Assembly: GCA_902582315.1 (NCBI GenBank) | Contig: CACHRP010000006.1 | Span: 3,713-67,712 of the forward strand | Reading direction: 5' to 3' | Source of the DNA: an uncultured Pelagibacteraceae bacterium | GTDB lineage: Bacteria > Pseudomonadota > Alphaproteobacteria > Pelagibacterales > Pelagibacteraceae | Length of the DNA stretch: 64,000 nucleotides | Shown: positions 6,489 to 56,552 of the stretch, in pieces | Layout: each line of letters opens with the position of its first letter | How positions within the stretch are numbered: position 1 is the stretch's first letter | Made by a program: the position numbers and the translations under genes | Notes under the pieces: generated by a model | The model's database searches: none | Told to the model about the DNA's origin: nothing | The model's input: the letters and a program-made list of their open reading frames with translations, nothing else

Positions 6489-6571
6489 AAATGTTAATGC
6501 GAACTATTCTCACAAAAAAACTTTGTTTAACACATACCCATGACAATTTGCGAGTCTTTTTAATTTTTGTA

Positions 6572-6596
6572 ATACTTGACTATTTTAGTCGGGTAT
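6572..6596. promoter_or_regulatory. Type-1 IscR binding site overlapping the -35 (TTGACT, 6576-6581) of the iscR-suf promoter
   Basis: ATACTTGACTATTTTAGTCGGGTAT matches ATASYYGACTRwwwYAGTCRRSTAT at every position. Confidence 0.88.
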
Positions 6597-6624
6597 ATAT
6601 ATAACCCGCGTAATTATTGATATT

Positions 6625-7047
6625 ATGAAGCTAAATACTAAATCTAGATATGCGGTTATGGCTTTGGCAGATATGTCAAAGTTTCCAATAAATAATCCTG
6701 TAAGTTTGAGGGATATTTCATTGAGACAAAGTATTTCATTGCTCTACCTAGAACAAATTTTTTTAAAATTAAAAAAAAATGAAATTGTAAAAAGTGTTCG
6801 TGGATCAAGTGGCGGATATGTTTTAAAAAGAGATCCAAAAAATATTAAGTTATCTGAAATATTCCAGGCTGTAGACCAAAAAGTAAAAACAGTTGGATGT
6901 AAAAAAGATTCAAAAAAAGGATGTAATGGAAAATCAGTAAAATGTATTACGCATGAGTTATGGGATGAACTTGATATATATATAAACAATTTTTTTGAGA
7001 ATAAAAATCTTAGTGATCTTTTAATGACTAAAGAGAGGAAAAACTAA
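6625..7047 (+). CDS. iscR: Rrf2-family Fe-S cluster regulator, IscR type
   Basis: RYAV.AL, YLEQIF, RG..GGY motifs; three Cys plus His (C-x7-C-x6-CITH). Confidence 0.85.
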
Positions 7048-8483
7048 TGGACGAAAAAAATTTAGATATTATTAAAGATTACAAGTACGGTTTTTCTACT
7101 GATATTGAAAATATAAAAGCACCAAAAGGTCTAAATGAAGAAGTAATCAAATTTATTTCAAATATAAAAAAAGAACCAAAATGGTTATTAGATTGGAGGC
7201 TTCAAGCTTACAAAAGATTAAAAGTTTTAAAAGAACCTGATTGGCAAAAACCTAAATATCCAAAAATAAATTATCAAGATTTGTATTATTATTCTGCACC
7301 AAAAAACTTTAATGAAAAGCCAAAAAAATTAGAAGACTTAGACCCTAAATTATTAGAAACTTACAAAAAACTGGGTATACCACTTGATGAACAAAAAAGA
7401 CTTAATGGTATTGCTGTAGATGCAGTATTTGACTCAGTATCAGTTGCTACGACATTCAAAGATACTTTAACTAAACATGGAATTATTTTTTGTTCAATAT
7501 CTGAGGCTGTTCAAAAACATCCAGACCTAGTTAAAAAATATTTAGGCACTGTGATTCCGATAACAGATCATTATTTTGCTACCTTGAATTCAGCAGTATT
7601 TACTGATGGTTCATTTGTTTACATCCCAGAGGGTGTTAGGTGTCCAATGGAATTGTCTACTTATTTTAGAATTAATGCGTCAGATACTGGACAGTTTGAA
7701 AGAACTTTAATTATTGCAGATAAAGGAAGTTATGTAAGTTATCTAGAAGGTTGTACAGCTCCTATGAGAGACGAAAATCAACTTCATGCAGCAAATGTTG
7801 AACTAATTGCATTAGATGATGCAGAAATAAAATATTCTACAGTTCAAAATTGGTACCCAGGAGATAAAGATGGGAAGGGTGGTATTTATAATTTTGTAAC
7901 GAAAAGAGGATTGTGCAAAGGAAGCAATTCAAAAATATCTTGGACACAAGTTGAAACTGGATCAGCTATTACTTGGAAATATCCAAGTTGCATACTCAAA
8001 GGTGATAATTCAATTGGTGAATTTTACTCAATCGCTATAACAAACAATCATCAAAAAGCAGATACTGGCACAAAAATGATACACTTAGGAAAAAATACGA
8101 AAAGTAAAATTATATCTAAAGGAATTAGTGCAGGGTTATCAGATATGACTTACAGAGGTTTGGTTGATATATCTCCTAATGCAGAAAATTCTAATAACTA
8201 TACTCAGTGCGACTCTCTTTTAATGGGAAACAAATGTGGAGCCCACACAATACCTTATATAAAAAATAAAAATTCAAATTCAAATATTGCTCATGAAGCA
8301 ACAACATCAAAGATTAGTGAAGACCAATTGCATTACTGTCAGCAGAGAGGCTTGAACCCAGAAGAGGCAGTTGGATTAATAGTAAATGGATTTTGTAAGG
8401 AAGTTCTCCAACAATTACCAATGGAATTTGCGGTTGAGGCTCAAAAACTAGTCGGTATCAGTCTAGAAGGAAGTGTAGGGTAA
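7047..8483 (+). CDS. sufB: Fe-S cluster assembly protein SufB
   Basis: [44 protein letters not shown] motifs. Confidence 0.97.
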
Positions 8484-9217
8484 TGTTAAAAATTAACAAT
8501 TTAAAAGCTAATATAGATAAAAAGTCTATCCTAAACGGGTTTAATTTGGAAATTAAAGCTGGTGAAGTTCATGCAATTATGGGCCCAAATGGATCAGGAA
8601 AAAGTACATTATCTAACATTTTATCAGGAAAAAAAGGATACGAAGTATCAGGCGAGGTACTATTTGAAAATAAAGATCTTTTTGAACTTGAAACAGAGGA
8701 AAGAGCTCATAAAGGTATCTTTTTAGCATTTCAATACCCACTAGAAATTCCAGGTGTAAATACAAATATTTTTCTTAAAACATCTTTAAACGCAATAAGA
8801 AAAGCAAGAGGAGAAAAAGAATTAGACGCAATTGAATTTCTTAAAGTTGTTAAAGAAAAATCAAAAGAATTGAAATTTGACGAAGAAAAATTAAGTAGAC
8901 AACTAAATGTAGGTTTTTCTGGAGGTGAAAAAAAGAAAAATGAAATTTTACAAATGTCTATATTGAATCCAAAATTATCAATTCTTGATGAAACAGATTC
9001 AGGATTAGACATTGATGCACTAAAAATAGTTGCTAATGGGGTAAACTCTTTAAGAAAGAAGAATAATGCATTCTTAATTATTACTCATTACCAAAGGCTG
9101 CTTGATTATATCAAACCTGATTTTGTCCATGTTTTAATTGATGGTAAAATTAAAAAATCAGGTGGACCTGAATTAGCATTGGAGCTTGAAAGTAAAGGAT
9201 ACGAAAATATTAATTAA
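8483..9217 (+). CDS. sufC: Fe-S cluster assembly ATPase SufC
   Basis: GPNGSGKST, FQYP.EIPG, FSGGEKK, LDETDSGLDIDAL motifs. Confidence 0.97.
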   Translation: MLKINNLKANIDKKSILNGFNLEIKAGEVHAIMGPNGSGKSTLSNILSGKKGYEVSGEVLFENKDLFELETEERAHKGIFLAFQYPLEIPGVNTNIFLKTSLNAIRKARGEKELDAIEFLKVVKEKSKELKFDEEKLSRQLNVGFSGGEKKKNEILQMSILNPKLSILDETDSGLDIDALKIVANGVNSLRKKNNAFLIITHYQRLLDYIKPDFVHVLIDGKIKKSGGPELALELESKGYENIN

Positions 9218-10462
9218 ATGGAAAATAAAATTAAAATAGATTTTGATAAAACCTTTAAAAATTATTCGTCAAATGATGAATTAGATTTTAAAAAGAATAA
9301 CTTAGAAAATTTTATAAAAGAAGGTTTACCAGGAAGAAAATTAGAAAGTTGGAAATTTTCAGATTTAAACCAAATTATAAATAAGAATATTGGAGAATTA
9401 AATTTTTATATAGATCAATCAAAAGAAAATTTAATTGATAATGCTTTAATTATTAAAGACTTTGATCACAATAAAATAGTATTTATTAACGGCAAAGTAG
9501 AAGAATTAGATTTTAGTTTTGAGGATAAAGATAAAGTAAAAATATTAAAAGAGTTTGATATGAGCATAAAAATTAAAAGTAAAAACTCACTCTTAAATTT
9601 AAATAATGCATTTTGTAAAAATTTTTACAAAATTAATATTTCAAAAAATTATACCATGAACAAGCCATTAATAATTTATCATGTTTCAACCAATAATATC
9701 AGTTCAACAACATTAAATTCCCAATTAAATTTTATTTTAGAAGAAAACAGTTCTTTAAAAATAGTTGATATTTATGAAGATAAAAGTGAAAAAAATTTTA
9801 TTAATACATTTTATAATTTTATTTTAAAAGAAAATGCAATCTTAAAAAACTTTAAAATTGATAAATTACAGAATAGTAATATAAAGTATTCGTATAATAA
9901 TATTGATCAATTAAAGAATAGTGTTTCAGAAACATTTATTTTATCCAATGGTTCAAAATTTTTAAAAAACGAAATCAATTGTAATTTAAATGGCCAATAT
10001 TCATCTGCATTTATAAATGGAGTATTTTCATTAGATGCTGATAAGCATCATGAAATTAGGACGTCTGTTAATCACTTAGTTGAAAATACAAAAAGTTATC
10101 AACTAATTAAAAGTGTTCTTGATGATAAATCTAAGTCTGTATATCAAGGTAAAATTTATGTAAGTCCAAATGCACAGAAAACTGATGGCTATCAATTAAG
10201 TAAATGTATTCTATTAGATAAAAATACTGAGTTTAATGCAAAGCCTGAACTAGAGATATATGCTGACGATGTAAAATGTTCACACGGTTCTGCATCTGGA
10301 AGCCTCAATGAAAATTCAATATTTTATTTAAGATCTAGAGGACTAAATTACAAGCAAGCCAAAAAACTTTTAATTAGTGGTTTTTTCCTTGATGTAATTG
10401 AGAAAATTACTGATGAGGAAATTAAAAGTTTTATAAAGAAAACTATGGAATTAAATCAATGA
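9218..10462 (+). CDS. sufD: Fe-S cluster assembly protein SufD
   Basis: E.WKFSDL, AQKTDGYQ, KPELEIYADDVKCSHG, FYLRSRG motifs. Confidence 0.93.
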   Translation: MENKIKIDFDKTFKNYSSNDELDFKKNNLENFIKEGLPGRKLESWKFSDLNQIINKNIGELNFYIDQSKENLIDNALIIKDFDHNKIVFINGKVEELDFSFEDKDKVKILKEFDMSIKIKSKNSLLNLNNAFCKNFYKINISKNYTMNKPLIIYHVSTNNISSTTLNSQLNFILEENSSLKIVDIYEDKSEKNFINTFYNFILKENAILKNFKIDKLQNSNIKYSYNNIDQLKNSVSETFILSNGSKFLKNEINCNLNGQYSSAFINGVFSLDADKHHEIRTSVNHLVENTKSYQLIKSVLDDKSKSVYQGKIYVSPNAQKTDGYQLSKCILLDKNTEFNAKPELEIYADDVKCSHGSASGSLNENSIFYLRSRGLNYKQAKKLLISGFFLDVIEKITDEEIKSFIKKTMELNQ

Positions 10463-11676
10463 ATATAAATAACATTAAAAAACAGTTTCCAATATTTAAT
10501 AATAAAGTTCACAACAACGATCTAGTTTATCTCGATAGTGCCAACTCGTCTCAGAAACCTCAGATGGTTGTCGATAGAATCTACGATTTTTATACAAAAG
10601 AATTTTCTAATGTTGGGAGAAGCGTGCATTATTTAGCTGTAGCTGCAACAAATTTATATGAAAACACCAGGACAATGATGCAAAAATATATAAACGCTAA
10701 AGATCCTAATGAAATAGTATTTACCAAAGGTGCAACAGAAGCAATTAATTTAGTAGCAAATACCTTTGGTCAAAAGTTTTTAAGAGAAGGGGATGAGATA
10801 CTTCTTACAGAACTAGAACATCATTCAAATTATGTTCCGTGGCATTATTTAAGAAAATTAAAGGGAGTTAAAATTAATTTTGCAGAAATAAATAATGATG
10901 GTGAAATAACTTTAGAAAGTATTGAAAAAAGTATAACACCCAAAACTAAAATGATTGCGATCACACATCTATCAAATGTTACTGGAGCAATTTTGCCAAT
11001 AAAAGAAATTACATCTTTGGCTCACTCAAAAAATATCCCTATATTGATAGATGGCTGTCAGGGAGCTCCTCATTTAAAATTAGACATGCAAGATATAGAT
11101 TGCGATTTCTATGCAATTTCGTGTCATAAAATGTACGGACCTACTGGTTTAGGTGTTCTATATGCTAAAAAAAAATGGCTTGATACTTTACCACCATATC
11201 AAGGTGGGGGAGGTATGATTAGAGAAGTAAAGAAAGAAGGTATATCTTTTGGAGATCTTCCAAACAAATATGAAGCAGGTACTATGGCAACAGCTCAGGT
11301 AATTGCATTTGGGGAGTCTATAAAGTTTCTAAATCAAATAGGCATTGAGAATATTGAAAAGCATGAGAGTGAACTTACAAAATACGGTGAAGAAGTATTA
11401 AGAAAAAATAACTCAGTTAAACTTGTAGGTAATCCAAAAAATAAAGGATCTGTCTTATCATTTACTTTAGATGGGATACATGCTCACGATATTGCAACTA
11501 TTTTAGATGAAGATGGAGTAGCTATTCGAGCAGGTCATCACTGTTGTCAAATACTGCATGATAAACTTGGATTGTCAGCTACAGCCAGAGCATCACTAGG
11601 TGTTTATAACACTAAAGATGATTTAGATAAATTAAATGAATCAATTAATAAATGTAAAAAAATATTCGATAGATAA
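10459..11676 (+). CDS. sufS: SufS-type cysteine desulfurase
   Basis: YLDSA..SQKP, LEHHSN, SCHKMYGPTG (PLP Lys), RAGHHC motifs. Confidence 0.95.
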   Translation: MNINNIKKQFPIFNNKVHNNDLVYLDSANSSQKPQMVVDRIYDFYTKEFSNVGRSVHYLAVAATNLYENTRTMMQKYINAKDPNEIVFTKGATEAINLVANTFGQKFLREGDEILLTELEHHSNYVPWHYLRKLKGVKINFAEINNDGEITLESIEKSITPKTKMIAITHLSNVTGAILPIKEITSLAHSKNIPILIDGCQGAPHLKLDMQDIDCDFYAISCHKMYGPTGLGVLYAKKKWLDTLPPYQGGGGMIREVKKEGISFGDLPNKYEAGTMATAQVIAFGESIKFLNQIGIENIEKHESELTKYGEEVLRKNNSVKLVGNPKNKGSVLSFTLDGIHAHDIATILDEDGVAIRAGHHCCQILHDKLGLSATARASLGVYNTKDDLDKLNESINKCKKIFDR

Positions 11677-12146
11677 TGGACTTAAAAGAATTATATCAGG
11701 AAATAATTTTAGAACATGGAAAAAATCCTAAGAACCTTGGTAAGTTTGAAAACTTTAATAAAGATGCCAAAGGGAACAATCCATTATGTGGTGACAAAGT
11801 TCACATCTATTTAAAAACTGATGAAAATAAAAAAATTTCAGATATTAAATTTGAAGGAGAAGGTTGTGCGATTACGATGGCATCTACTTCAATAATGACA
11901 GAATTAATGAAAGAAAAAAGTGAAACTGAAGTTAAGGAATTAATTGATGATTTTTTAAATATGATAAAAGAAAATTCTGAGCTTAAATCAAAAAATATCA
12001 ATGAAGATGATAAAATTAAGCTGATGTCATTATCAGGTGTGAAAAAATACCCAATGCGAGTAAAATGTGCAACATTACCATGGCATACTCTTATTTCTGC
12101 AATGTCAAATAAACCAGGAGAAGTGAATACAGAGAAAGAAGAATAA
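11676..12146 (+). CDS. sufU: SufU/NifU-like scaffold / sulfurtransferase
   Basis: LYQEIILEH, NPLCGD, GCAI..AS, RVKCATL.WH motifs. Confidence 0.88.
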   Translation: MDLKELYQEIILEHGKNPKNLGKFENFNKDAKGNNPLCGDKVHIYLKTDENKKISDIKFEGEGCAITMASTSIMTELMKEKSETEVKELIDDFLNMIKENSELKSKNINEDDKIKLMSLSGVKKYPMRVKCATLPWHTLISAMSNKPGEVNTEKEE

Positions 12147-16828: not shown

Positions 16829-16931
16829 AAAATTTCACGTGAAACCATAATAAAACTTTTAATTGAATATTTCATGATTTTAAATTCTTGAATCAATTTC
16901 AAGTTGAAAATATTTTGTTACATTTACATTG

Positions 16932-16953
16932 CAATTAAAAATTGTTTTAATTG
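16932..16953. promoter_or_regulatory. 9-bp inverted repeat CAATTAAAA-attg-TTTTAATTG upstream of the aldB SD
   Basis: Perfect inverted repeat, all but one pair A-T, about 15 nt before GGAGG. Confidence 0.3.
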
Positions 16954-16976
16954 GAATTATAAAAAATGGAGGAAAA

Positions 16977-18521
16977 ATGAGTGCAGAAGCAATGAAAGTG
17001 TCTTCGGTTCTAGATACCTCTCATCTAAAGGTTAAATTTCCATTTAAAGCAAAGTATGGAAACTACATTAACGGTAAATTTGTAGAACCTCTATCTGGTA
17101 AATATTTTGACAATGTAAGCCCGATATCTAATGAGAAGATCTGTTCAGTTGCTCGTTCAAACGAGAAAGACGTGGAAGCTGCATTAGACGCGGCACACGC
17201 AGCTTTCCCTGAATGGGGAAAGACAGACATCACAACAAGATCAAACATCTTGTACAAAATCGCTGATGTTTTAGAAAAAAATCTAAACTTATTAGCTGTT
17301 GCTGAATGTTTAGATAATGGTAAACCGATTAGAGAATGTATGGCTGCTGACTTACCTTTAGTGATTGATCACTGGAGATATTTCGCAGGAGTAATAAGAG
17401 CTGAAGAAGGTTCTATTGCTGAGATTGCTAATAATCAATACTCATACAATTTTCATGAACCGCTAGGAGTAGTTGGTCAGATAGTTCCATGGAATTTCCC
17501 ATTATTAATGGCAACATGGAAATTAGCACCGGCTCTTGCTGCAGGAAACTGTTCAGTTTTAAAACCAGCTGAACAAACGCCAGCATCAATTATGGTAATG
17601 ATGGAACTTATTGGAGACTTATTACCGAAAGGTGTTGTTAACATTGTTAGCGGTTTTGGATTAGAAGCAGGTAAACCTTTGGCATCTTCTAAAAGAGTTG
17701 CGAAAGTTGCATTTACTGGTGAAACAACAACTGGAAGATTGATTATGCAGTATGCTGCACAAAACATAATTCCAATTACATTAGAATTAGGTGGAAAATC
17801 TCCTAATATCTTCTTTGAAGACGTCATGGATAAAGATGATGATTTCTTCGATAAATGTATTGAAGGTTTTGTAATGTTCAATCTAAACCAAGGTGAAGTT
17901 TGTACTTGCCCAAGTAGAGCTTTAATTCAAGAATCTATCTATGATAAATTCATGGAAAGAGCTATTGCTAGAACAAAAGCTGTTGTGCAAGATAATCCTT
18001 TAAAAATGGAAACAATGATTGGAGCTCAAGCGTCAGTAGAGCAAATGGAGAAGATTAAATCTTATCTAGAGCTAGGTAAAAAAGAAGGCGCTAAAGTTCT
18101 TACTGGTGGAAGTGTTGCTAAGCTTAATAGTGGCTTGGAAAAAGGTAATTATATCCAACCAACTGTTTTTGAGGCTAAAAACAACATGAGAATATCTCAA
18201 GAAGAGATCTTCGGACCAGTTGTATCTGTGATTAAATTTAAAGATGAGGCAGAAGCATTGAAAATTGCTAATGATACTCTTTATGGTTTAGGAGCAGCTG
18301 TATGGACAAGAAATGGAAATATAGCTCACAGAATGGGTAGAGCAATACAAGCAGGAATAGTATGGACTAATTGTTATCATGCTTATCCAGCTCACTCACC
18401 ATTTGGTGGATACAAACAATCAGGAGTTGGAAGAGAAACTCACAAAATGATGCTTAATCATTACAGACAGAATAAGAACTTACACGTTTCTTATGCTGAG
18501 AAAAAATTGGGCTTCTTTTAA
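16977..18521 (+). CDS. aldB: AldB-type aldehyde (acetaldehyde) dehydrogenase
   Basis: [55 protein letters not shown]. Start placed at ATG 16977 after GGAGG. Confidence 0.9.
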
Positions 18522-46363: not shown

Positions 46364-47026
46364 ATGACACTTAAAATAAATAGCTTAGCTCCTGATTTTA
46401 AAGCAAAAACTCAAGAAGGCGACATATCGTTTCATGAGTGGCTTGGTGATAGTTGGGGTGTTTTGTTTTCACATCCAAAAGATTTTACACCAGTTTGCAC
46501 AACTGAATTAGGTTCATTAGCAAAAATGAAACCAGAGTTTGACGCAAGAAACGTAAAAGTTTTAGGACTTAGTGTAGATCCAGTTTCTGACCACGTAAAA
46601 TGGTTAGAAGACATTAAAGATGTTTGTGGAATGAAACCAACTTATCCAATCATTGCAGATGAAAAATTGGAAGTGGCAAAACTTTACAATATGTTAGAAG
46701 GTGATGCTGGCGTTACTTCAATGGGAAGAACAGCTGTAGACAATGAAACAGTAAGAACTGTTTATATAATTAGACCGGATAAAAGAATTGGTTTATTTTT
46801 AACATATCCAATGACAACAGGAAGAAACTTTGCAGAAATACTAAGAGCAATAGACTCTATGCAGAGAACTGCTAAACATAAAATAGCTACTCCTGCTGAT
46901 TGGAAACCAGGAGAGGATGTAATTATTGTTCCCAAGGTAACTAACGAGGAAGCAAAGAAAATATATCCTGATGGATGGGAAACCGTAAAACCTTACTTAA
47001 GAAAAGTTCCAGATCCAAATAAATAA
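46364..47026 (+). CDS. 1-Cys peroxiredoxin (Prx6 family)
   Basis: FSHPKDFTPVCTTELG, YPMTTGRNF.E, ATPADW motifs. Confidence 0.93.
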   Translation: MTLKINSLAPDFKAKTQEGDISFHEWLGDSWGVLFSHPKDFTPVCTTELGSLAKMKPEFDARNVKVLGLSVDPVSDHVKWLEDIKDVCGMKPTYPIIADEKLEVAKLYNMLEGDAGVTSMGRTAVDNETVRTVYIIRPDKRIGLFLTYPMTTGRNFAEILRAIDSMQRTAKHKIATPADWKPGEDVIIVPKVTNEEAKKIYPDGWETVKPYLRKVPDPNK

Positions 47027-53730: not shown

Positions 53731-54192
53731 ATGAAAAAAAGAAAGTTCATTAAATTACTATTTTCAACTTTTTCATCATTTTTTTTTATCCCCTTATCAT
53801 CTTTATACGCGACCATAGAAAAAAAAATTATAAATAAATCACTAACTGAAGAACAAAAAAAAATAATGTTTAAGGAGGGAACCGAAAGGCCATTTACAAG
53901 CAGTTTGAATTATGAGACTAGAGAAGGTTTTTATCACTGCGCAAATTGTAATGCTAAACTTTTTTCTTCAAGCGCAAAGTTTGACAGTGGAACAGGGTGG
54001 CCATCGTTTTCTGAAGCTCTTCCAGGTGCATTTAAAACAAAAGTAGATTATTCATTTGGAATGAAACGTATTGAATATCATTGTGCGAATTGTGGCGCAC
54101 ATCATGGGCACGTATTCGATGATGGACCTTCAGAAACAGGAAAAAGATTTTGTAATAACGGTCTTTGTTTAATCTTTATTCCATCTAATTAA
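53731..54192 (+). CDS. msrB: Peptide-methionine (R)-S-oxide reductase with N-terminal signal-like peptide
   Basis: GTERPF, two CxxC, KFDSGTGWPSF, HHGHVFDDGP, RFCNNG motifs. Confidence 0.95.
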   Translation: MKKRKFIKLLFSTFSSFFFIPLSSLYATIEKKIINKSLTEEQKKIMFKEGTERPFTSSLNYETREGFYHCANCNAKLFSSSAKFDSGTGWPSFSEALPGAFKTKVDYSFGMKRIEYHCANCGAHHGHVFDDGPSETGKRFCNNGLCLIFIPSN

Positions 54193-54632
54193 TCTATAAA
54201 ATTAAGCTTAATCAATTTTTCTCTTTTTATTTCTTTACACCAAAGTTCATAAGTTTCACACATTCTCCAAACTAGACCAAAAGCATTTTGTGAACTGGAC
54301 AACGGAAAGGAACTTTTTGCAAAATAAGTTTCACTATTTTCTTGAAATTGTTTAATAACAGTATTCTTTTGTAAATTAAGTAAATCAATAGTTTCTTTTG
54401 GTATTTTAATTCCTGTTTCTTGATTAATGAAATTATTGTCTTTTATTTTAGAAAAAAGACTATCATGAAAATTACCCTTTTTAATTTCATCAAATTCTTT
54501 AGTTGCTAAAAATCTTTCTATAAGTTCAACGTTTGTTATACCTGGTTCTAATTCTTTTATTTTAATTAATTGTAAATAAATAGATTCTGCTAAATAGAGC
54601 ATCAAAGGTTTTGAGGTGTCTTTTTTTTTCAT
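54189..54632 (-). CDS. Hypothetical protein, preceded by a Fur box
   Basis: 147 aa; no family recognised. Confidence 0.65.
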   Translation of the reverse strand: MKKKDTSKPLMLYLAESIYLQLIKIKELEPGITNVELIERFLATKEFDEIKKGNFHDSLFSKIKDNNFINQETGIKIPKETIDLLNLQKNTVIKQFQENSETYFAKSSFPLSSSQNAFGLVWRMCETYELWCKEIKREKLIKLNFID

Positions 54633-54642
54633 TTTATTTTTT

Positions 54643-54661
54643 GTTAATGATAATCATTACT
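54643..54661. promoter_or_regulatory. Fur box 1
   Basis: GTTAATGATAATCATTACT matches 16 of 19 positions of GATAATGATAATCATTATC. Confidence 0.75.
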
Positions 54662-54699
54662 AACTAAATTTTTTTTATCAATTTTATGCATTTTTTTTA

Positions 54700-54719
54700 T
54701 GATAATGATTATCATTAGT
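54700..54719. promoter_or_regulatory. Fur box 2
   Basis: TGATAATGATTATCA (54700-54714) is a perfect TGATAAT-N-ATTATCA core; 54701-54719 matches 16 of 19 positions of the classical box. Confidence 0.8.
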
Positions 54720-54785
54720 TTTGAGATTTATTATCAAAAAATTTTAAAATGTTGAAAAAATATTTTTTTTTCTTATTTTATTCAC

Positions 54786-54965
54786 ATGGAACTAGAAACT
54801 CACAATTGTAGAAAATGTGGTTTAACTATATCGGCAACATGTTCAAAATGTCATAGAGTTGTTGATGTTAAGAAACTTGATGACGGATGTATCGTAAAAG
54901 TTACTAAGTGCGGTGATTGTGCTAATACCCCAGTAATTAAAGATATCTGTACTAATCAAGCTTAA
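54786..54965 (+). CDS. Small Cys-rich metal-binding protein, 59 aa, 8 Cys (not in ORF track)
   Basis: MELETHNCRKCGLTISATCSKCHRVVDVKKLDDGCIVKVTKCGDCANTPVIKDICTNQA*; three CxxC motifs. Confidence 0.8.
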   Translation: MELETHNCRKCGLTISATCSKCHRVVDVKKLDDGCIVKVTKCGDCANTPVIKDICTNQA

Positions 54966-54971
54966 GTTAAA

Positions 54972-56552
54972 TCAATTAAGAACTAATTCTGAACCTTTTT
55001 CAGCAATCATAAGGACTGGTGCGTTTAAATTTGCACTTGGTATTTCTGGTATTACCGATGCATCAATTACTCTTAAATTTTCAATACCTTTTACTTTTAA
55101 GTTTTCATCAACTACAGCCATATCATCAACTCCCATTTTACATGTTCCACATGGATGATAAGCAGTATCTGCTTTAGATTTTATATAATCATCTAATTCA
55201 TCATCGGATTTTGCATCTGTGCCAGGACCAATTTCTTTTCCAGCATGCTCTGAAAGAGCAGGTTGAGATAATATTTTTCTTGCAACATGAATACACTCTC
55301 TAGTTTGTTTTAAATCTTCATCCTCTTTCAAATAATTAAATAATATTTTTGGATATTCATATGGATCAGAAGAATTTAATGTAATTTGACCTCTACTTTT
55401 TGGATGATTCGGACTTGCATGTAATTGATAACCATGAGTATCAGGGTCAACCAGACCATGATTTATTACAAATGATGGAAAGAAATGAAATTGAATATTT
55501 GCAACCTTTCTCTGAGGATTTGATTTTGCAAATCCACCTGCTTCTAAAAATGATTTAGAACATGGTCCAGACTTGAACATAAACCACTGAATTCCTGCTA
55601 ATACTTTTGGTATTAGTTTTGTATAGGTATACAATGTATTCGGCGTCTTACACTCCTGTTGAATGTAAGTTTCCAAATGATCTTGCAAGTTTTTACCAAC
55701 CCCTTTTAGATCGTTTATTACTTCAATACCTTTTTCTTTTAAATGATCTGCATCACCAATTCCAGATACCATTAATAATTGAGGTGAATTAATTGAACCA
55801 CCACTAAGTATAACTTCTTTATTTGCATAAATTTTTTTGACTTCATTTTTTATTTTTACTTGTAATCCTATCGCTTTTTTTCCCTCAAATAATATTTTTT
55901 CTACATATGAATTTTTTAAAATATTTAAATTTTTTCTATTTTTAACTGGGTTTAAATAATATTTACCTACGCCGGCTCTTTCTCCTTTATGCATGGTTGT
56001 ATCAAACATACCAAAACCTTCTTGCTCTTCACCATTCATATCAATATTTGTTTTATGACCAGCCTGACCTGCGGCATCAATAAAAGCTTTGAATAGTGGA
56101 TTTGAATTTTTAGATAAATTTATTGGTAGAGGACCAAGAGAACCTCTATATTGATTTTCGCCCTCAGACCACGTCTCAATTTTTTTAAAATAAGGTAAAA
56201 CTTTTTCATATGACCAATTTTTTAAACCAAAACTTTCCCACCTTGAGTAATCGTCTTTATTTCCTCTTACAAAAACCATTCCATTATGAGAGGAACAACC
56301 ACCAATCATTTTACCTCTTGGACAAAAAACTCTTCTATTATTAAGGTAAGGTTCTGGTTCTGAATAATATTTCCAATTATACTTTGGATCATGCATAGTA
56401 TAAAGGAGGGCAAGGGGCATTTTTACTTTCCAAATATCGCTTGAACCACCAGCTTCAAAAATTGCAACTTTATTTTTACTATCTTCTGACAACCTATTAG
56501 CAAGCACACATCCCGCAGATCCAGCACCAACTATCAAATAATCATAATTCAT
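54972..56552 (-). CDS. betA: Choline dehydrogenase (GMC oxidoreductase)
   Basis: GAGSAGC.LANRLSE, CPRGK.IGG.SS.NGM, GKNLQDHLE, YHPCGTCKMG, SANLNAP motifs. Confidence 0.85.
   Translation of the reverse strand: MNYDYLIVGAGSAGCVLANRLSEDSKNKVAIFEAGGSSDIWKVKMPLALLYTMHDPKYNWKYYSEPEPYLNNRRVFCPRGKMIGGCSSHNGMVFVRGNKDDYSRWESFGLKNWSYEKVLPYFKKIETWSEGENQYRGSLGPLPINLSKNSNPLFKAFIDAAGQAGHKTNIDMNGEEQEGFGMFDTTMHKGERAGVGKYYLNPVKNRKNLNILKNSYVEKILFEGKKAIGLQVKIKNEVKKIYANKEVILSGGSINSPQLLMVSGIGDADHLKEKGIEVINDLKGVGKNLQDHLETYIQQECKTPNTLYTYTKLIPKVLAGIQWFMFKSGPCSKSFLEAGGFAKSNPQRKVANIQFHFFPSFVINHGLVDPDTHGYQLHASPNHPKSRGQITLNSSDPYEYPKILFNYLKEDEDLKQTRECIHVARKILSQPALSEHAGKEIGPGTDAKSDDELDDYIKSKADTAYHPCGTCKMGVDDMAVVDENLKVKGIENLRVIDASVIPEIPSANLNAPVLMIAEKGSELVLN

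What the first reader, a model, noticed from the sequence alone, without database searches (positions are those of the whole stretch)
54189..54965. Tandem Fur boxes controlling a divergon of two unknown genes
Seen: two 15-bp palindromic cores, TAATGAT-W-ATCATTA (54645-54659 and 54703-54717), 58 bp apart and reverse complements of each other. The second also contains a perfect TGATAAT-N-ATTATCA. Box 1 lies about 10 bp upstream of the 147-aa hypothetical; box 2 lies about 35 bp upstream of the likely -35 of the 59-aa Cys-rich gene. I saw no iron-uptake gene nearby. Inference: an undescribed iron- (or Mn-) responsive pair.
Basis: partly seen in the sequence, partly recalled or inferred. Interest (0 to 1): 0.72.

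Follow-up and report, generated by a model that had tools for sequence, protein, structure and literature searches.

The report
Fur boxes guarding a tiny SAR11 gene
The two palindromes are real, conserved Fur-type iron-regulator binding sites, but they belong first of all to a 59-residue, eight-cysteine protein gene found across SAR11 ocean bacteria; this looks like a second, undescribed conserved target of iron regulation in that group.

Summary
TAATGATAATCATTA (54645-54659) and TAATGATTATCATTA (54703-54717) are exact, and none is expected by chance. The second also holds a perfect TGATAATGATTATCA.

The window is Pelagibacteraceae (SAR11) DNA. The boxes match a matrix built from published SAR11 Fur boxes in front of the iron-limitation-induced sfuC gene.

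They travel with the 59-aa, 8-Cys gene (54786-54965). That gene occurs in at least 312 species-level SAR11 genomes and in eight or more gene neighbourhoods. In 147 of 156 distinct upstream regions a Fur 7-1-7 site has at most 2 mismatches, although synonymous sites are saturated.

A conserved TTGAAA-N16-TATTTT promoter sits 34-35 nt before the ATG, which predicts a leaderless mRNA. The boxes lie upstream of its -35.

The 147-aa gene is found in only 19 genomes. It carries no box when it lies elsewhere, so the "divergon" is a lineage-specific by-product. Here box 1 does overlap its predicted promoter.

The sign of regulation is open; I favour repression by Fe-Fur. The function of both proteins is unknown. 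Earlier work credited SAR11 Fur boxes only to iron transporters.

The parts
54645..54659 (.). Fur box 1 (distal to the small gene). The palindrome is TAATGATAATCATTA, inside the 19-mer 54643-54661.
   Evidence: Matrix score 10.6 bits at 54640-58 and 9.3 bits at 54646-64. It is conserved in the 14 loci of the window's clade, with one arm degraded in L005 and L007. It corresponds in position to the distal box of the L029 clade, which lacks the 147-aa gene.
54700..54717 (.). Fur box 2. It holds a perfect 7-1-7 TGATAATGATTATCA (54700-54714) overlapping the palindrome TAATGATTATCATTA (54703-54717).
   Evidence: At 19.2 bits it is the best hit of the whole 64-kb window to the SAR11 sfuC-box matrix. 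It is invariant in the clade.
54722..54736 (.). Weak third Fur-like box, TGAGATTTATTATCA. It occupies the position of the 'proximal' box of other clades (about -66 from the ATG).
   Evidence: 9.9 bits; 2 mismatches to the 7-1-7 consensus. Its position matches the -61 to -68 class seen in other loci.
54752..54779 (+). Predicted sigma-70 promoter of the small gene: TTGAAA (54752-57), 16 nt, TATTTT (54774-79). The -10 ends 6 nt before the ATG, which predicts a leaderless mRNA.
   Evidence: TTG is present in 80/80 loci and lies exactly 34 or 35 nt before the ATG in 75/80. A conserved TATTT element lies 16 nt downstream of the hexamer. No transcript 5' end was mapped.
54786..54965 (+). Gene for a 59-aa protein with 8 cysteines that are invariant in alignment A4: C8xxC11-x7-C19xxC22-x12-C35-x6-C42xxC45-x9-C55.
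   Evidence: pN is 0.08-0.18 against pS 0.5-0.8. Found in 312 species genomes. No Pfam, NCBIfam or PDB family. Metatranscriptome contigs cover the coding sequence of an orthologue.
54189..54632 (-). Gene for a 147-aa all-helical protein of unknown function. Conserved features are H56 and the motif FPLSxSQNAFxLxWRMCETYELWC.
   Evidence: AlphaFold2 pLDDT 83 with six helices. No fold match in PDB or BFVD. Present in only 19 species genomes, and next to the small gene in 16 of them.
54653..54681 (-). Candidate promoter of the 147-aa gene: TTGATA (54681-76), 17 nt, AATGAT (54658-53). Its -10 lies inside box 1.
   Evidence: 9 of 12 consensus positions. A better-scoring alternative is TTGATA (54737-32), 18 nt, GATAAT (54713-08), whose -10 lies inside box 2 (10 of 12). 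Both are consensus matches only.

Best explanation
The intergenic region 54633-54785 is a Fur operator array of two strong boxes and one weak box. It belongs to the promoter of a small, SAR11-specific, eight-cysteine (probably metal-binding) protein gene. That gene is transcribed from a conserved TTGAAA-N16-TATTTT promoter, probably as a leaderless mRNA. Fe(II)-Fur is inferred to bind the boxes, which lie immediately upstream of the -35. I think the most likely outcome is repression when iron is plentiful, either by occupying the upstream (UP-element) DNA or by spreading along the AT-rich promoter, so that the small protein is made under iron scarcity. In the window's lineage only, a 147-aa gene lies head-to-head with this array. 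Any promoter for it must lie within the boxes, so it is probably co-repressed as a secondary consequence of where it sits. Shown: the boxes exist, they match lineage-specific Fur boxes, they are conserved with the small gene across contexts, and the small ORF is under purifying selection. Inferred: Fur binding, the promoter and the leaderless start, the sign of regulation, and metal binding by the protein.
For: The boxes are exact and not expected by chance. A matrix built only from published SAR11 boxes in front of Fe3+ transporter and FTR1 genes ranks box 2 first in the window. It finds a hit of at least 12 bits within 200 nt upstream of the small gene in 80/80 loci, against 10 such hits in 375 kb elsewhere. 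In a second set, 107 hits of at least 14 bits lie near the gene and 4 lie elsewhere in 907 kb. Of 156 distinct upstream regions, 147 hold a 7-1-7 Fur site with at most 2 mismatches, while 155 have at least 3 mismatches to the Irr ICE consensus. The boxes persist in at least eight gene neighbourhoods and in a deeply divergent clade, although synonymous sites are saturated. sfuC, which carries the same kind of box, rose 16-fold under iron limitation in strain HTCC1062. At the syntenic position in HTCC1062 (fabB, fabA, Fur-family gene, then rbr and glpC, then SAR11_0401 and 0402, then moeB, dut, dfp, aarF, ubiE, mutM), SAR11_0401 falls in the 'early iron stress' mRNA cluster and its protein was 2.2-fold up in iron-limited cultures. 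Box 1 and box 2 overlap the -10 of the two candidate promoters of the 147-aa gene.
Against: No binding or expression data exist for this locus. The identity of SAR11_0401 with the small gene rests on synteny alone, because I could not fetch its sequence. It is also not among the 23 transcripts listed as at least 1.5-fold up in Table 1 of that paper. The boxes lie upstream of the predicted -35 rather than over the core promoter. In Caulobacter, another alphaproteobacterium, that geometry goes with activation by Fur. The promoter and the leaderless start are predictions; metatranscriptome contigs were too sparse to place a 5' end. Box 1 scores only 10.6 bits on the SAR11 matrix. Rodionov et al. 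predicted a single Fur operon in P. ubique.
Confidence: 0.6

Rival explanations
1. The operators and regulator are the same, but the sign is opposite. Fe-Fur bound upstream of the -35 activates the small gene when iron is sufficient, and the eight-cysteine protein is an iron-using or iron-buffering protein (rubredoxin-like or Fe-S) that is switched off to spare iron.
For: The proximal box ends 8-14 nt upstream of the -35 in all clades and never overlaps the -10 of the conserved promoter. In Caulobacter, Fur sites upstream of the -35 (nuoA, sdhC, acnA) activate, while overlapping sites repress. The published SAR11 sfuC boxes lie much closer to the start codon, at -15 to -52 with one at +7. The CxxCG knuckles fit an Fe(Cys)4 or Zn(Cys)4 site. 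In two genomes a 23-bit Fur-like box lies in the same upstream position before katG, which encodes a haem enzyme.
Against: SAR11_0401, if it is the orthologue, behaves as an iron-stress-induced gene. Activation by Fur is the minority mode. With two or three boxes, Fur could spread into the promoter. The promoter assignment is itself only predicted.
Confidence: 0.25
2. One reading: the 147-aa and 59-aa genes form a functional, co-regulated pair (a true divergon).
For: Of the 19 species genomes with a relative of the 147-aa gene, 16 have it directly beside the small gene. This occurs in two different arrangements, divergent (13) and convergent (3), with proteins only 45-47% identical between the arrangements. 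Within the window's clade the whole intergenic region is conserved, and box 1 and box 2 overlap its candidate promoters.
Against: The small gene occurs with its boxes in at least 312 genomes, and about 95% of these lack the 147-aa gene. The two-box array predates the juxtaposition (L029 clade). Convergent and unlinked copies of the 147-aa gene have no Fur box upstream. The flanks of the small gene are generally variable, so adjacency may reflect an insertion hot spot.
Confidence: 0.2
3. The boxes are read by another Fur-family paralogue (Irr, Zur, or a Mur- or PerR-like protein). The signal would then be haem, zinc, manganese or peroxide rather than iron.
For: SAR11 genomes carry several Fur-family genes. 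In most genomes the small gene lies 3.7 kb downstream of an Irr-like gene and next to katG, peroxiredoxin or other oxidative-stress genes. In the window, msrB is the next gene but one. An eight-cysteine protein could equally be zinc-related.
Against: The boxes match the Fur 7-1-7 consensus and the boxes of the iron-induced sfuC gene. ICE-like (Irr-type) motifs do occur in the same loci, but before irr and katG and not before the small gene. I made no scan with a Zur or Mur matrix, so those two are excluded only by the good fit to Fur.
Confidence: 0.1
4. The palindromes are chance AT-rich sequence with no function.
For: The genome is 71% A+T, so Fur-like hexamers are common. A 15-bit matrix hit occurs inside an aldehyde dehydrogenase ORF at 18264.
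Against: The expected number of exact matches is 0.00. The boxes are conserved in 156 distinct upstream regions although neutral sites are saturated. The density of hits upstream of the gene is several hundred to more than a thousand times that of the rest of the same loci.
Confidence: 0.02

Closest known systems
Fur boxes of the SAR11 sfuABC (fbp) Fe3+ transporter operon and FTR1 (Rodionov 2006, PMC1698941; Smith 2010, PMC2864753; Hogle 2016, PMC4771312)
   Same: Same 19-bp / 7-1-7 motif family (TGA[T/G]AAT-N-ATT[A/C]TCA) in the same organisms. sfuC carries such a box and is induced 16-fold by iron limitation.
   Different: Those boxes are single and lie close to the start codon of a transporter gene (-15 to -52, with one at +7). 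Here there are two or three boxes further upstream of a predicted leaderless promoter, in front of a 59-aa protein of unknown function. This target is not in the published lists, which state that P. ubique has one Fur operon and that SAR11 Fur boxes always precede Fe3+ ABC transporter or FTR1 genes.
IsiE of Synechocystis (PMC8634477)
   Same: A previously overlooked 59-aa protein with 8 cysteines, encoded inside the Fur-controlled isiA-isiB iron-starvation operon. It is conserved in more than 100 cyanobacteria and its function is unknown.
   Different: It belongs to a different phylum. Its hallmark motif is reported as CXCC/CXXC, and it is co-transcribed with isiA rather than having its own promoter. 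I could not assign any hit of the profile search over 1.84 billion proteins to cyanobacteria.
Fur-activated promoters of Caulobacter crescentus (nuoA, sdhC, acnA; PMC2724300), and, from my own knowledge, E. coli ftnA, where Fe-Fur bound at several upstream sites relieves H-NS silencing
   Same: The Fur sites lie upstream of the -35 rather than over the core promoter. At ftnA there are several tandem sites.
   Different: Those genes encode known iron-using or iron-storage proteins, and the regulation has been shown experimentally. Here neither the sign of regulation nor the function is known.
Small zinc-finger or zinc-ribbon micro-proteins, such as DUF1610 HVO_2753 (PDB 6ydh) and Pfam DZR (double zinc ribbon)
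   Same: About 60 residues with paired CxxC knuckles.
   Different: The matches are below threshold only (6ydh E = 0.13; DZR 17.5 bits against a cut-off of 27.3). The AlphaFold2 model is poor (pLDDT 54).
Fur-regulated small basic proteins FbpA/B/C of Bacillus subtilis (Gaballa 2008, cited in PMC2864753)
   Same: Very small proteins that are direct members of a Fur regulon.
   Different: They are basic and not cysteine-rich, they act together with a small RNA in iron sparing, and there is no sequence relation.

Membership tests
Fur operator (Fur box) | Match to the 19-bp consensus GATAATGATAATCATTATC or the 7-1-7 TGATAATNATTATCA | tested here: met
   16/19 and 16-17/19. Box 2 has 0 mismatches to the 7-1-7; box 1 and box 3 have 2.
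Fur operator (Fur box) | Resemblance to the lineage's own Fur boxes in front of a gene known to respond to iron | tested here: met
   Matrix built from SAR11 sfuC/FTR1 boxes: box 2 scores 19.2 bits (training sites 22.8-27.2), box 1 scores 10.6 (weak) and box 3 scores 9.9.
Fur operator (Fur box) | Conserved in front of orthologous genes across diverged genomes | tested here: met
   80/80 loci, 88/118 at a stricter cut-off, and 147/156 distinct upstream regions. Also present in a divergent clade.
Fur operator (Fur box) | Position in or next to a promoter | tested here: inconclusive
   The boxes end 8-34 nt upstream of the conserved predicted -35 of the small gene. They overlap the predicted -10 of the 147-aa gene. 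No transcription start was mapped.
Fur operator (Fur box) | Bound by Fur with metal, with metal-dependent expression of the target | not testable with these tools
   Only an indirect hint: the syntenic HTCC1062 gene SAR11_0401 is in the early iron-stress cluster and its protein was 2.2-fold up. Its identity with the small gene is unverified.
Fur operator (Fur box) | A fur gene in the same genome | not testable with these tools
   No Fur-family gene was found among the window ORFs scanned. The literature reports Fur in SAR11 genomes.
Irr operator (ICE, TTTAGAA-N3-TTCTAAA) | Match to the ICE consensus | tested here: not met
   No site with 3 or fewer mismatches in 54600-54790. 155/156 upstream regions have at least 3 mismatches. 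ICE-like sites lie before irr and katG instead.
Divergon (two genes sharing one operator region as a conserved unit) | Head-to-head genes with operators between them | tested here: met
   Window, and 13 further species genomes of its clade.
Divergon (two genes sharing one operator region as a conserved unit) | Both partners keep the operator when the arrangement changes | tested here: not met
   The small gene keeps its boxes in every context. The 147-aa gene has none when it is convergent (L057, L059, L061) or unlinked (L013, L014, L016).
Zinc-ribbon / rubredoxin-like small metalloprotein | Paired CxxC knuckles conserved | tested here: met
   C8xxC11, C19xxC22 and C42xxC45 plus C35 and C55 are invariant in alignment A4 (32 sequences).
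Zinc-ribbon / rubredoxin-like small metalloprotein | Significant match to a curated family or a solved structure | tested here: not met
   Pfam DZR 17.5 bits against a cut-off of 27.3. No NCBIfam match. Best PDB match E = 0.13. Model pLDDT 54.

The most novel reading that the evidence does not exclude
The 59-aa eight-cysteine protein is a SAR11-wide, Fur-controlled metalloprotein made from a leaderless mRNA, and it is a second universal output of iron sensing in the ocean's most abundant heterotroph, beside the sfu transporter. It would act in iron sparing, iron or redox buffering, or regulation, much as proposed for cyanobacterial IsiE. Its transcript would be a lineage-specific marker of SAR11 iron status in metatranscriptomes.
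Probability: 0.35. Interest if true: 0.7.

Novelty: new member of a known kind. Interest (0 to 1): 0.55.

Why it matters
SAR11 is thought to have a minimal iron-response system. The literature credits it with one predicted Fur operon (the Fe3+ ABC transporter), and with Fur boxes found only before transporter genes. A second Fur target that is kept in hundreds of SAR11 species genomes, and that moves between genomic contexts together with its operators, would mean the cells do something beyond importing more iron. The product is a tiny cysteine-rich protein that standard annotation calls hypothetical. It gives a concrete gene to test in cultured strains. If it responds to iron, it also gives a marker that could be read in existing ocean metatranscriptomes. 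The predicted leaderless start and the fixed position of the operators upstream of the -35 also offer a simple system for asking whether SAR11 Fur represses or activates.

Tried and rejected
(1) Function of the two proteins. Pfam, NCBIfam, PHROGs and PDB sequence searches gave nothing above threshold. Foldseek against PDB and BFVD found no match with E <= 0.001 for the confident 147-aa model. The 59-aa model was too poor to search.

(2) Distant relatives of the small protein. A profile search of 1.84 billion representatives found about 30 strong hits, all close relatives, many of them fragments. It also found a weakly related 'MATYECxKCGMSVNATCGKC' family on short contigs with uninformative neighbours.

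(3) The loci named in Smith 2010 as functionally unclear iron-stress genes (SAR11_1157, 1158, 1163, 1164) are unrelated: a methyltransferase, nrdF and others.

(4) Verifying that HTCC1062 SAR11_0401 is the small gene. Cluster look-ups, a degenerate DNA pattern scan, context classification and exact-protein look-ups never returned the HTCC1062 record or an rbr-glpC context.

(5) Mapping the transcript start from public metatranscriptomes. Only assembled contigs at depth 2-20 were available. They cover the coding sequence of an orthologue and not its promoter, but in the window they also cross the intergenic region. No 5' end can be called.

(6) A known RNA element in the spacer: no Rfam match and no tRNA.

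(7) Irr (ICE) as the motif: rejected.

(8) Homology to IsiE: not testable, because no sequence was held.
Full report
**What is in the sequence.** Between a 147-aa ORF on the minus strand (54189-54632) and a 59-aa ORF on the plus strand (54786-54965) lies a 153-bp spacer.
- It contains TAATGATAATCATTA at 54645-54659 and TAATGATTATCATTA at 54703-54717. Both are perfect 7-1-7 palindromes, they are reverse complements of each other, and their starts are 58 bp apart.
- The second overlaps a perfect TGATAATGATTATCA at 54700-54714.
- Exact matches to TAATGATWATCATTA in the window number 2, against a mean of 0.00 in 100 dinucleotide-preserving shuffles.
- The classical 19-mer Fur consensus matches both places at 16-17 of 19. 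There are 4 matches at up to 3 mismatches, against 0.15 expected.
- I add a third, weaker site, TGAGATTTATTATCA at 54722-54736.

**Whose DNA it is and what surrounds the site.**
- All relatives of both ORFs come from Pelagibacteraceae (SAR11) single-cell genomes, MAGs and marine metagenomes.
- The neighbours are msrB (53731-54192), a GMC oxidoreductase (54972-56552) and a PQQ-type sugar dehydrogenase. Further off lie a histidine-phosphatase-family gene, DUF4149, an SBF transporter and hisD.
- An iscR-sufBCDS-nifU operon lies 42 kb away at 6625-12146.
- No Fur-family gene was found among the window ORFs I scanned.

**Are these Fur boxes?** Hogle et al. 2016 list the Fur boxes found in cultured SAR11 genomes, all in front of the Fe3+-binding protein sfuC/futA, an Fe3+ ABC ATPase or FTR1. 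sfuC rose 16-fold under iron limitation in strain HTCC1062. I built a position matrix from the eight distinct published sites, so it owes nothing to the locus under study.
- Box 2 is the best hit in the 64-kb window at 19.2 bits (training sites score 22.8-27.2).
- Box 1 scores 10.6 bits and the third box 9.9 bits.
- The Irr operator consensus (ICE) does not match anywhere in the spacer.

- The 59-aa gene is found in 312 species-representative genomes, all Pelagibacteraceae.
- In the 80 best loci, every one has a matrix hit of at least 12 bits within 200 nt upstream of the gene. The rest of those loci hold 10 such hits in 375 kb.
- In the loci from the pattern scan, 107 hits of at least 14 bits lie within 300 nt of the gene and 4 lie elsewhere in 907 kb.
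- After removing duplicates, 147 of 156 distinct upstream regions hold a TGATAATNATTATCA site with at most 2 mismatches, and 46 of them are perfect.
- Most loci have two sites: a proximal one starting 61-68 nt before the ATG and a distal one at about -90 to -123.

**The boxes persist across unrelated neighbourhoods.**
- The commonest context is fabB-fabA, then an Irr-like Fur-family gene, katG, an Asp/Arg hydroxylase-family gene and DUF2061, then the boxes and the small gene, followed by SH3, thiF, dut and dfp.
- Other contexts have a peroxiredoxin downstream, a membrane protein and an SBF transporter, a creatinase-like gene, dapB with a methyltransferase, or recJ with an HslV-like gene.
- The last of these belongs to a divergent relative that lies on a 1.17-Mb contig and still carries a 17.6-bit box.
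- Between these lineages the small ORF shows pN 0.08-0.18 against pS 0.5-0.8.
- So it is a real coding gene under purifying selection. Neutral positions are saturated, yet the non-coding boxes survive.

**The 147-aa gene behaves differently.**
- A scan with its two most conserved motifs found it in only 19 species genomes.
- In 13 it lies head-to-head with the small gene, as in the window. In 3 it lies tail-to-tail downstream of the small gene, at 45-47% identity. In 3 it is elsewhere.
- None of the six copies outside the divergent arrangement has a Fur-like site of 9 bits or more upstream of its start.
- In the closest clade that lacks it (L029-L039), the small gene keeps a distal and a proximal box about 60 bp apart, behind a co-directional membrane-protein gene.
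- The tandem boxes are therefore the small gene's own regulatory region. The "divergon" arose when the 147-aa gene came to lie in front of that region.
- In the window its ATG is 12 nt from box 1, so its promoter has to lie within the box region. The two consensus candidates place their -10 hexamers inside box 1 or box 2. Co-repression in this lineage is thus plausible, but it is an inference.
- Adjacency in 16 of 19 genomes, in two orientations, is unexplained. It may reflect a functional tie or an insertion hot spot.

**Promoter geometry.**
- Aligned on the start codon, all 80 loci have TTG(A/T)(A/T). In 75 it begins exactly 34 or 35 nt before the ATG.
- A conserved TATTT(T/A) follows after a 16-nt spacer. 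In the window these elements are TTGAAA 54752-57 and TATTTT 54774-79.
- The -10 ends 6 nt before the ATG, so the predicted start is the A of the ATG: a leaderless mRNA. The fixed promoter-to-ATG distance is what such a transcript would require.
- The divergent clade instead has an AGGAG ribosome-binding site and a promoter further up, but its Fur box again lies 14 nt upstream of the -35-like TTGTTA.
- The conserved rule is therefore that the Fur box sits just upstream of the -35.
- Metatranscriptome contigs cover the coding sequence of an orthologue and leave its promoter region empty. They are too thin to place a 5' end, and in the window a few contigs cross the spacer.

**Sign of regulation.** Two readings remain.
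- For repression: it is the usual mode of Fur, several sites would allow spreading, and there is one experimental hint.
  - In HTCC1062 the gene order is fabB, fabA, Fur-family gene, rbr, glpC, SAR11_0401, SAR11_0402, moeB, dut, dfp, aarF, ubiE, mutM.
  - This matches the commonest context on both sides and puts SAR11_0401 where the small gene lies.
  - SAR11_0401 is in the "early iron stress" mRNA cluster, and its protein was 2.2-fold more abundant in iron-limited cultures at day 28.
  - I could not obtain its sequence, so the link is by synteny only.
- For activation: in Caulobacter, Fur sites upstream of the -35 activate iron-using genes while overlapping sites repress. The SAR11 sfuC boxes lie much closer to the start codon.
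- I put repression at roughly twice the likelihood of activation.

**The proteins.**
- The small protein keeps eight cysteines: C8xxC11-x7-C19xxC22-x12-C35-x6-C42xxC45-x9-C55, with the first knuckle CxxCG. That is enough for two tetrahedral metal sites.
- It has no family in Pfam, NCBIfam, PHROGs or the PDB, and its model is poor. Public records call it "hypothetical protein".
- The 147-aa protein folds confidently into six helices. It matches no solved or viral predicted structure.

**Comparison with what is known.**
- The regulatory device is an ordinary Fur operator array. What appears to be new is the target.
- Rodionov et al. predicted a single Fur operon in P. ubique. Hogle et al. state that SAR11 Fur boxes always precede Fe3+ ABC transporter components or FTR1.
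- Full-text searches found no description of this gene.
- The nearest parallel is IsiE of Synechocystis: also 59 aa with 8 cysteines, also overlooked, and encoded in the Fur-controlled isiA-isiB operon. Homology could not be tested.

**Verdict.** It is a new member of a known kind of system, of moderate interest.

Noticed in passing
window 6496-12146: An Rrf2 (IscR-like) regulator followed by sufB, sufC, sufD, sufS and a NifU-like gene, i.e. the Fe-S assembly operon. A weak Fur-matrix hit (AATGCGAACTATTCTCACA, 10.4 bits) lies at 6496-6514, just upstream of the regulator gene.
   Followed up: partly
L098 2287-5880 (also L099, L100, L162): In most SAR11 genomes the small gene closes a cluster made of an Irr-like Fur-family gene (132 aa, no CxxC, HHH motif) next to fabA-fabB, then katG, an Asp/Arg hydroxylase-family gene and DUF2061. 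ICE-like motifs (TTTAGAA-N3-TTATAAA) lie before the irr-like gene and katG, so two different Fur-family motif classes sit in one locus.
   Followed up: partly
L162 4311-4329; L177 71-89: A very strong Fur-like palindrome (ATTGAGAACGATTCTCAAT, 23 bits) lies in L162 between the irr-like gene and katG, about 24 nt upstream of a TTGACT-N16-TATAAA promoter. This is the same 'upstream of the -35' geometry as at the small gene. The L177 site scores the same; I did not inspect its neighbourhood.
   Followed up: partly
Loci L018-L249; window 46364-47026 and 53731-54192: Oxidative-stress genes recur beside the small gene in otherwise different contexts: katG, a 161-aa peroxiredoxin, an AhpC/GSHPx gene, msrB in the window, and rubrerythrin in HTCC1062. 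A 1-Cys peroxiredoxin lies 8 kb away in the window. This may point to a redox-related role.
   Followed up: no
window 54697-54790 and 54632-54660: Gene callers often start both proteins too early, reading through the Fur boxes. ATGATAATGATTATC... gives 'MIMIIIS...' (P0121, 88 aa) and ATGATTATCATTAAC... gives 'MIIIN...' (P0083, 157 aa). These extended forms in public protein sets are artefacts.
   Followed up: yes
window 54230-54269: The 40 nt that encode the WRMCETYELWC motif of the 147-aa protein match much deeper metatranscriptome contigs (1.3-1.5 kb, depth 22-28) that otherwise differ from the window. More distant members of this family therefore seem well expressed in the sea.
   Followed up: no
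window 18264-18282: A Fur-matrix hit of 15.1 bits (ATTGCTAATGATACTCTTT) lies inside the aldehyde dehydrogenase ORF 16929-18521. It is probably chance and serves as a reminder of the background in this AT-rich genome.
   Followed up: partly
proteins P0296-P0329: A weakly related family of proteins of about 64 aa, 'MATYECxKCGMSVNATCGKCDxPLVxD...VQISKCPNxHGKIKSPxCCG', shares the first two CxxC knuckles with the SAR11 protein. It also has no Pfam family and lies on short contigs with unrelated neighbours.
   Followed up: partly
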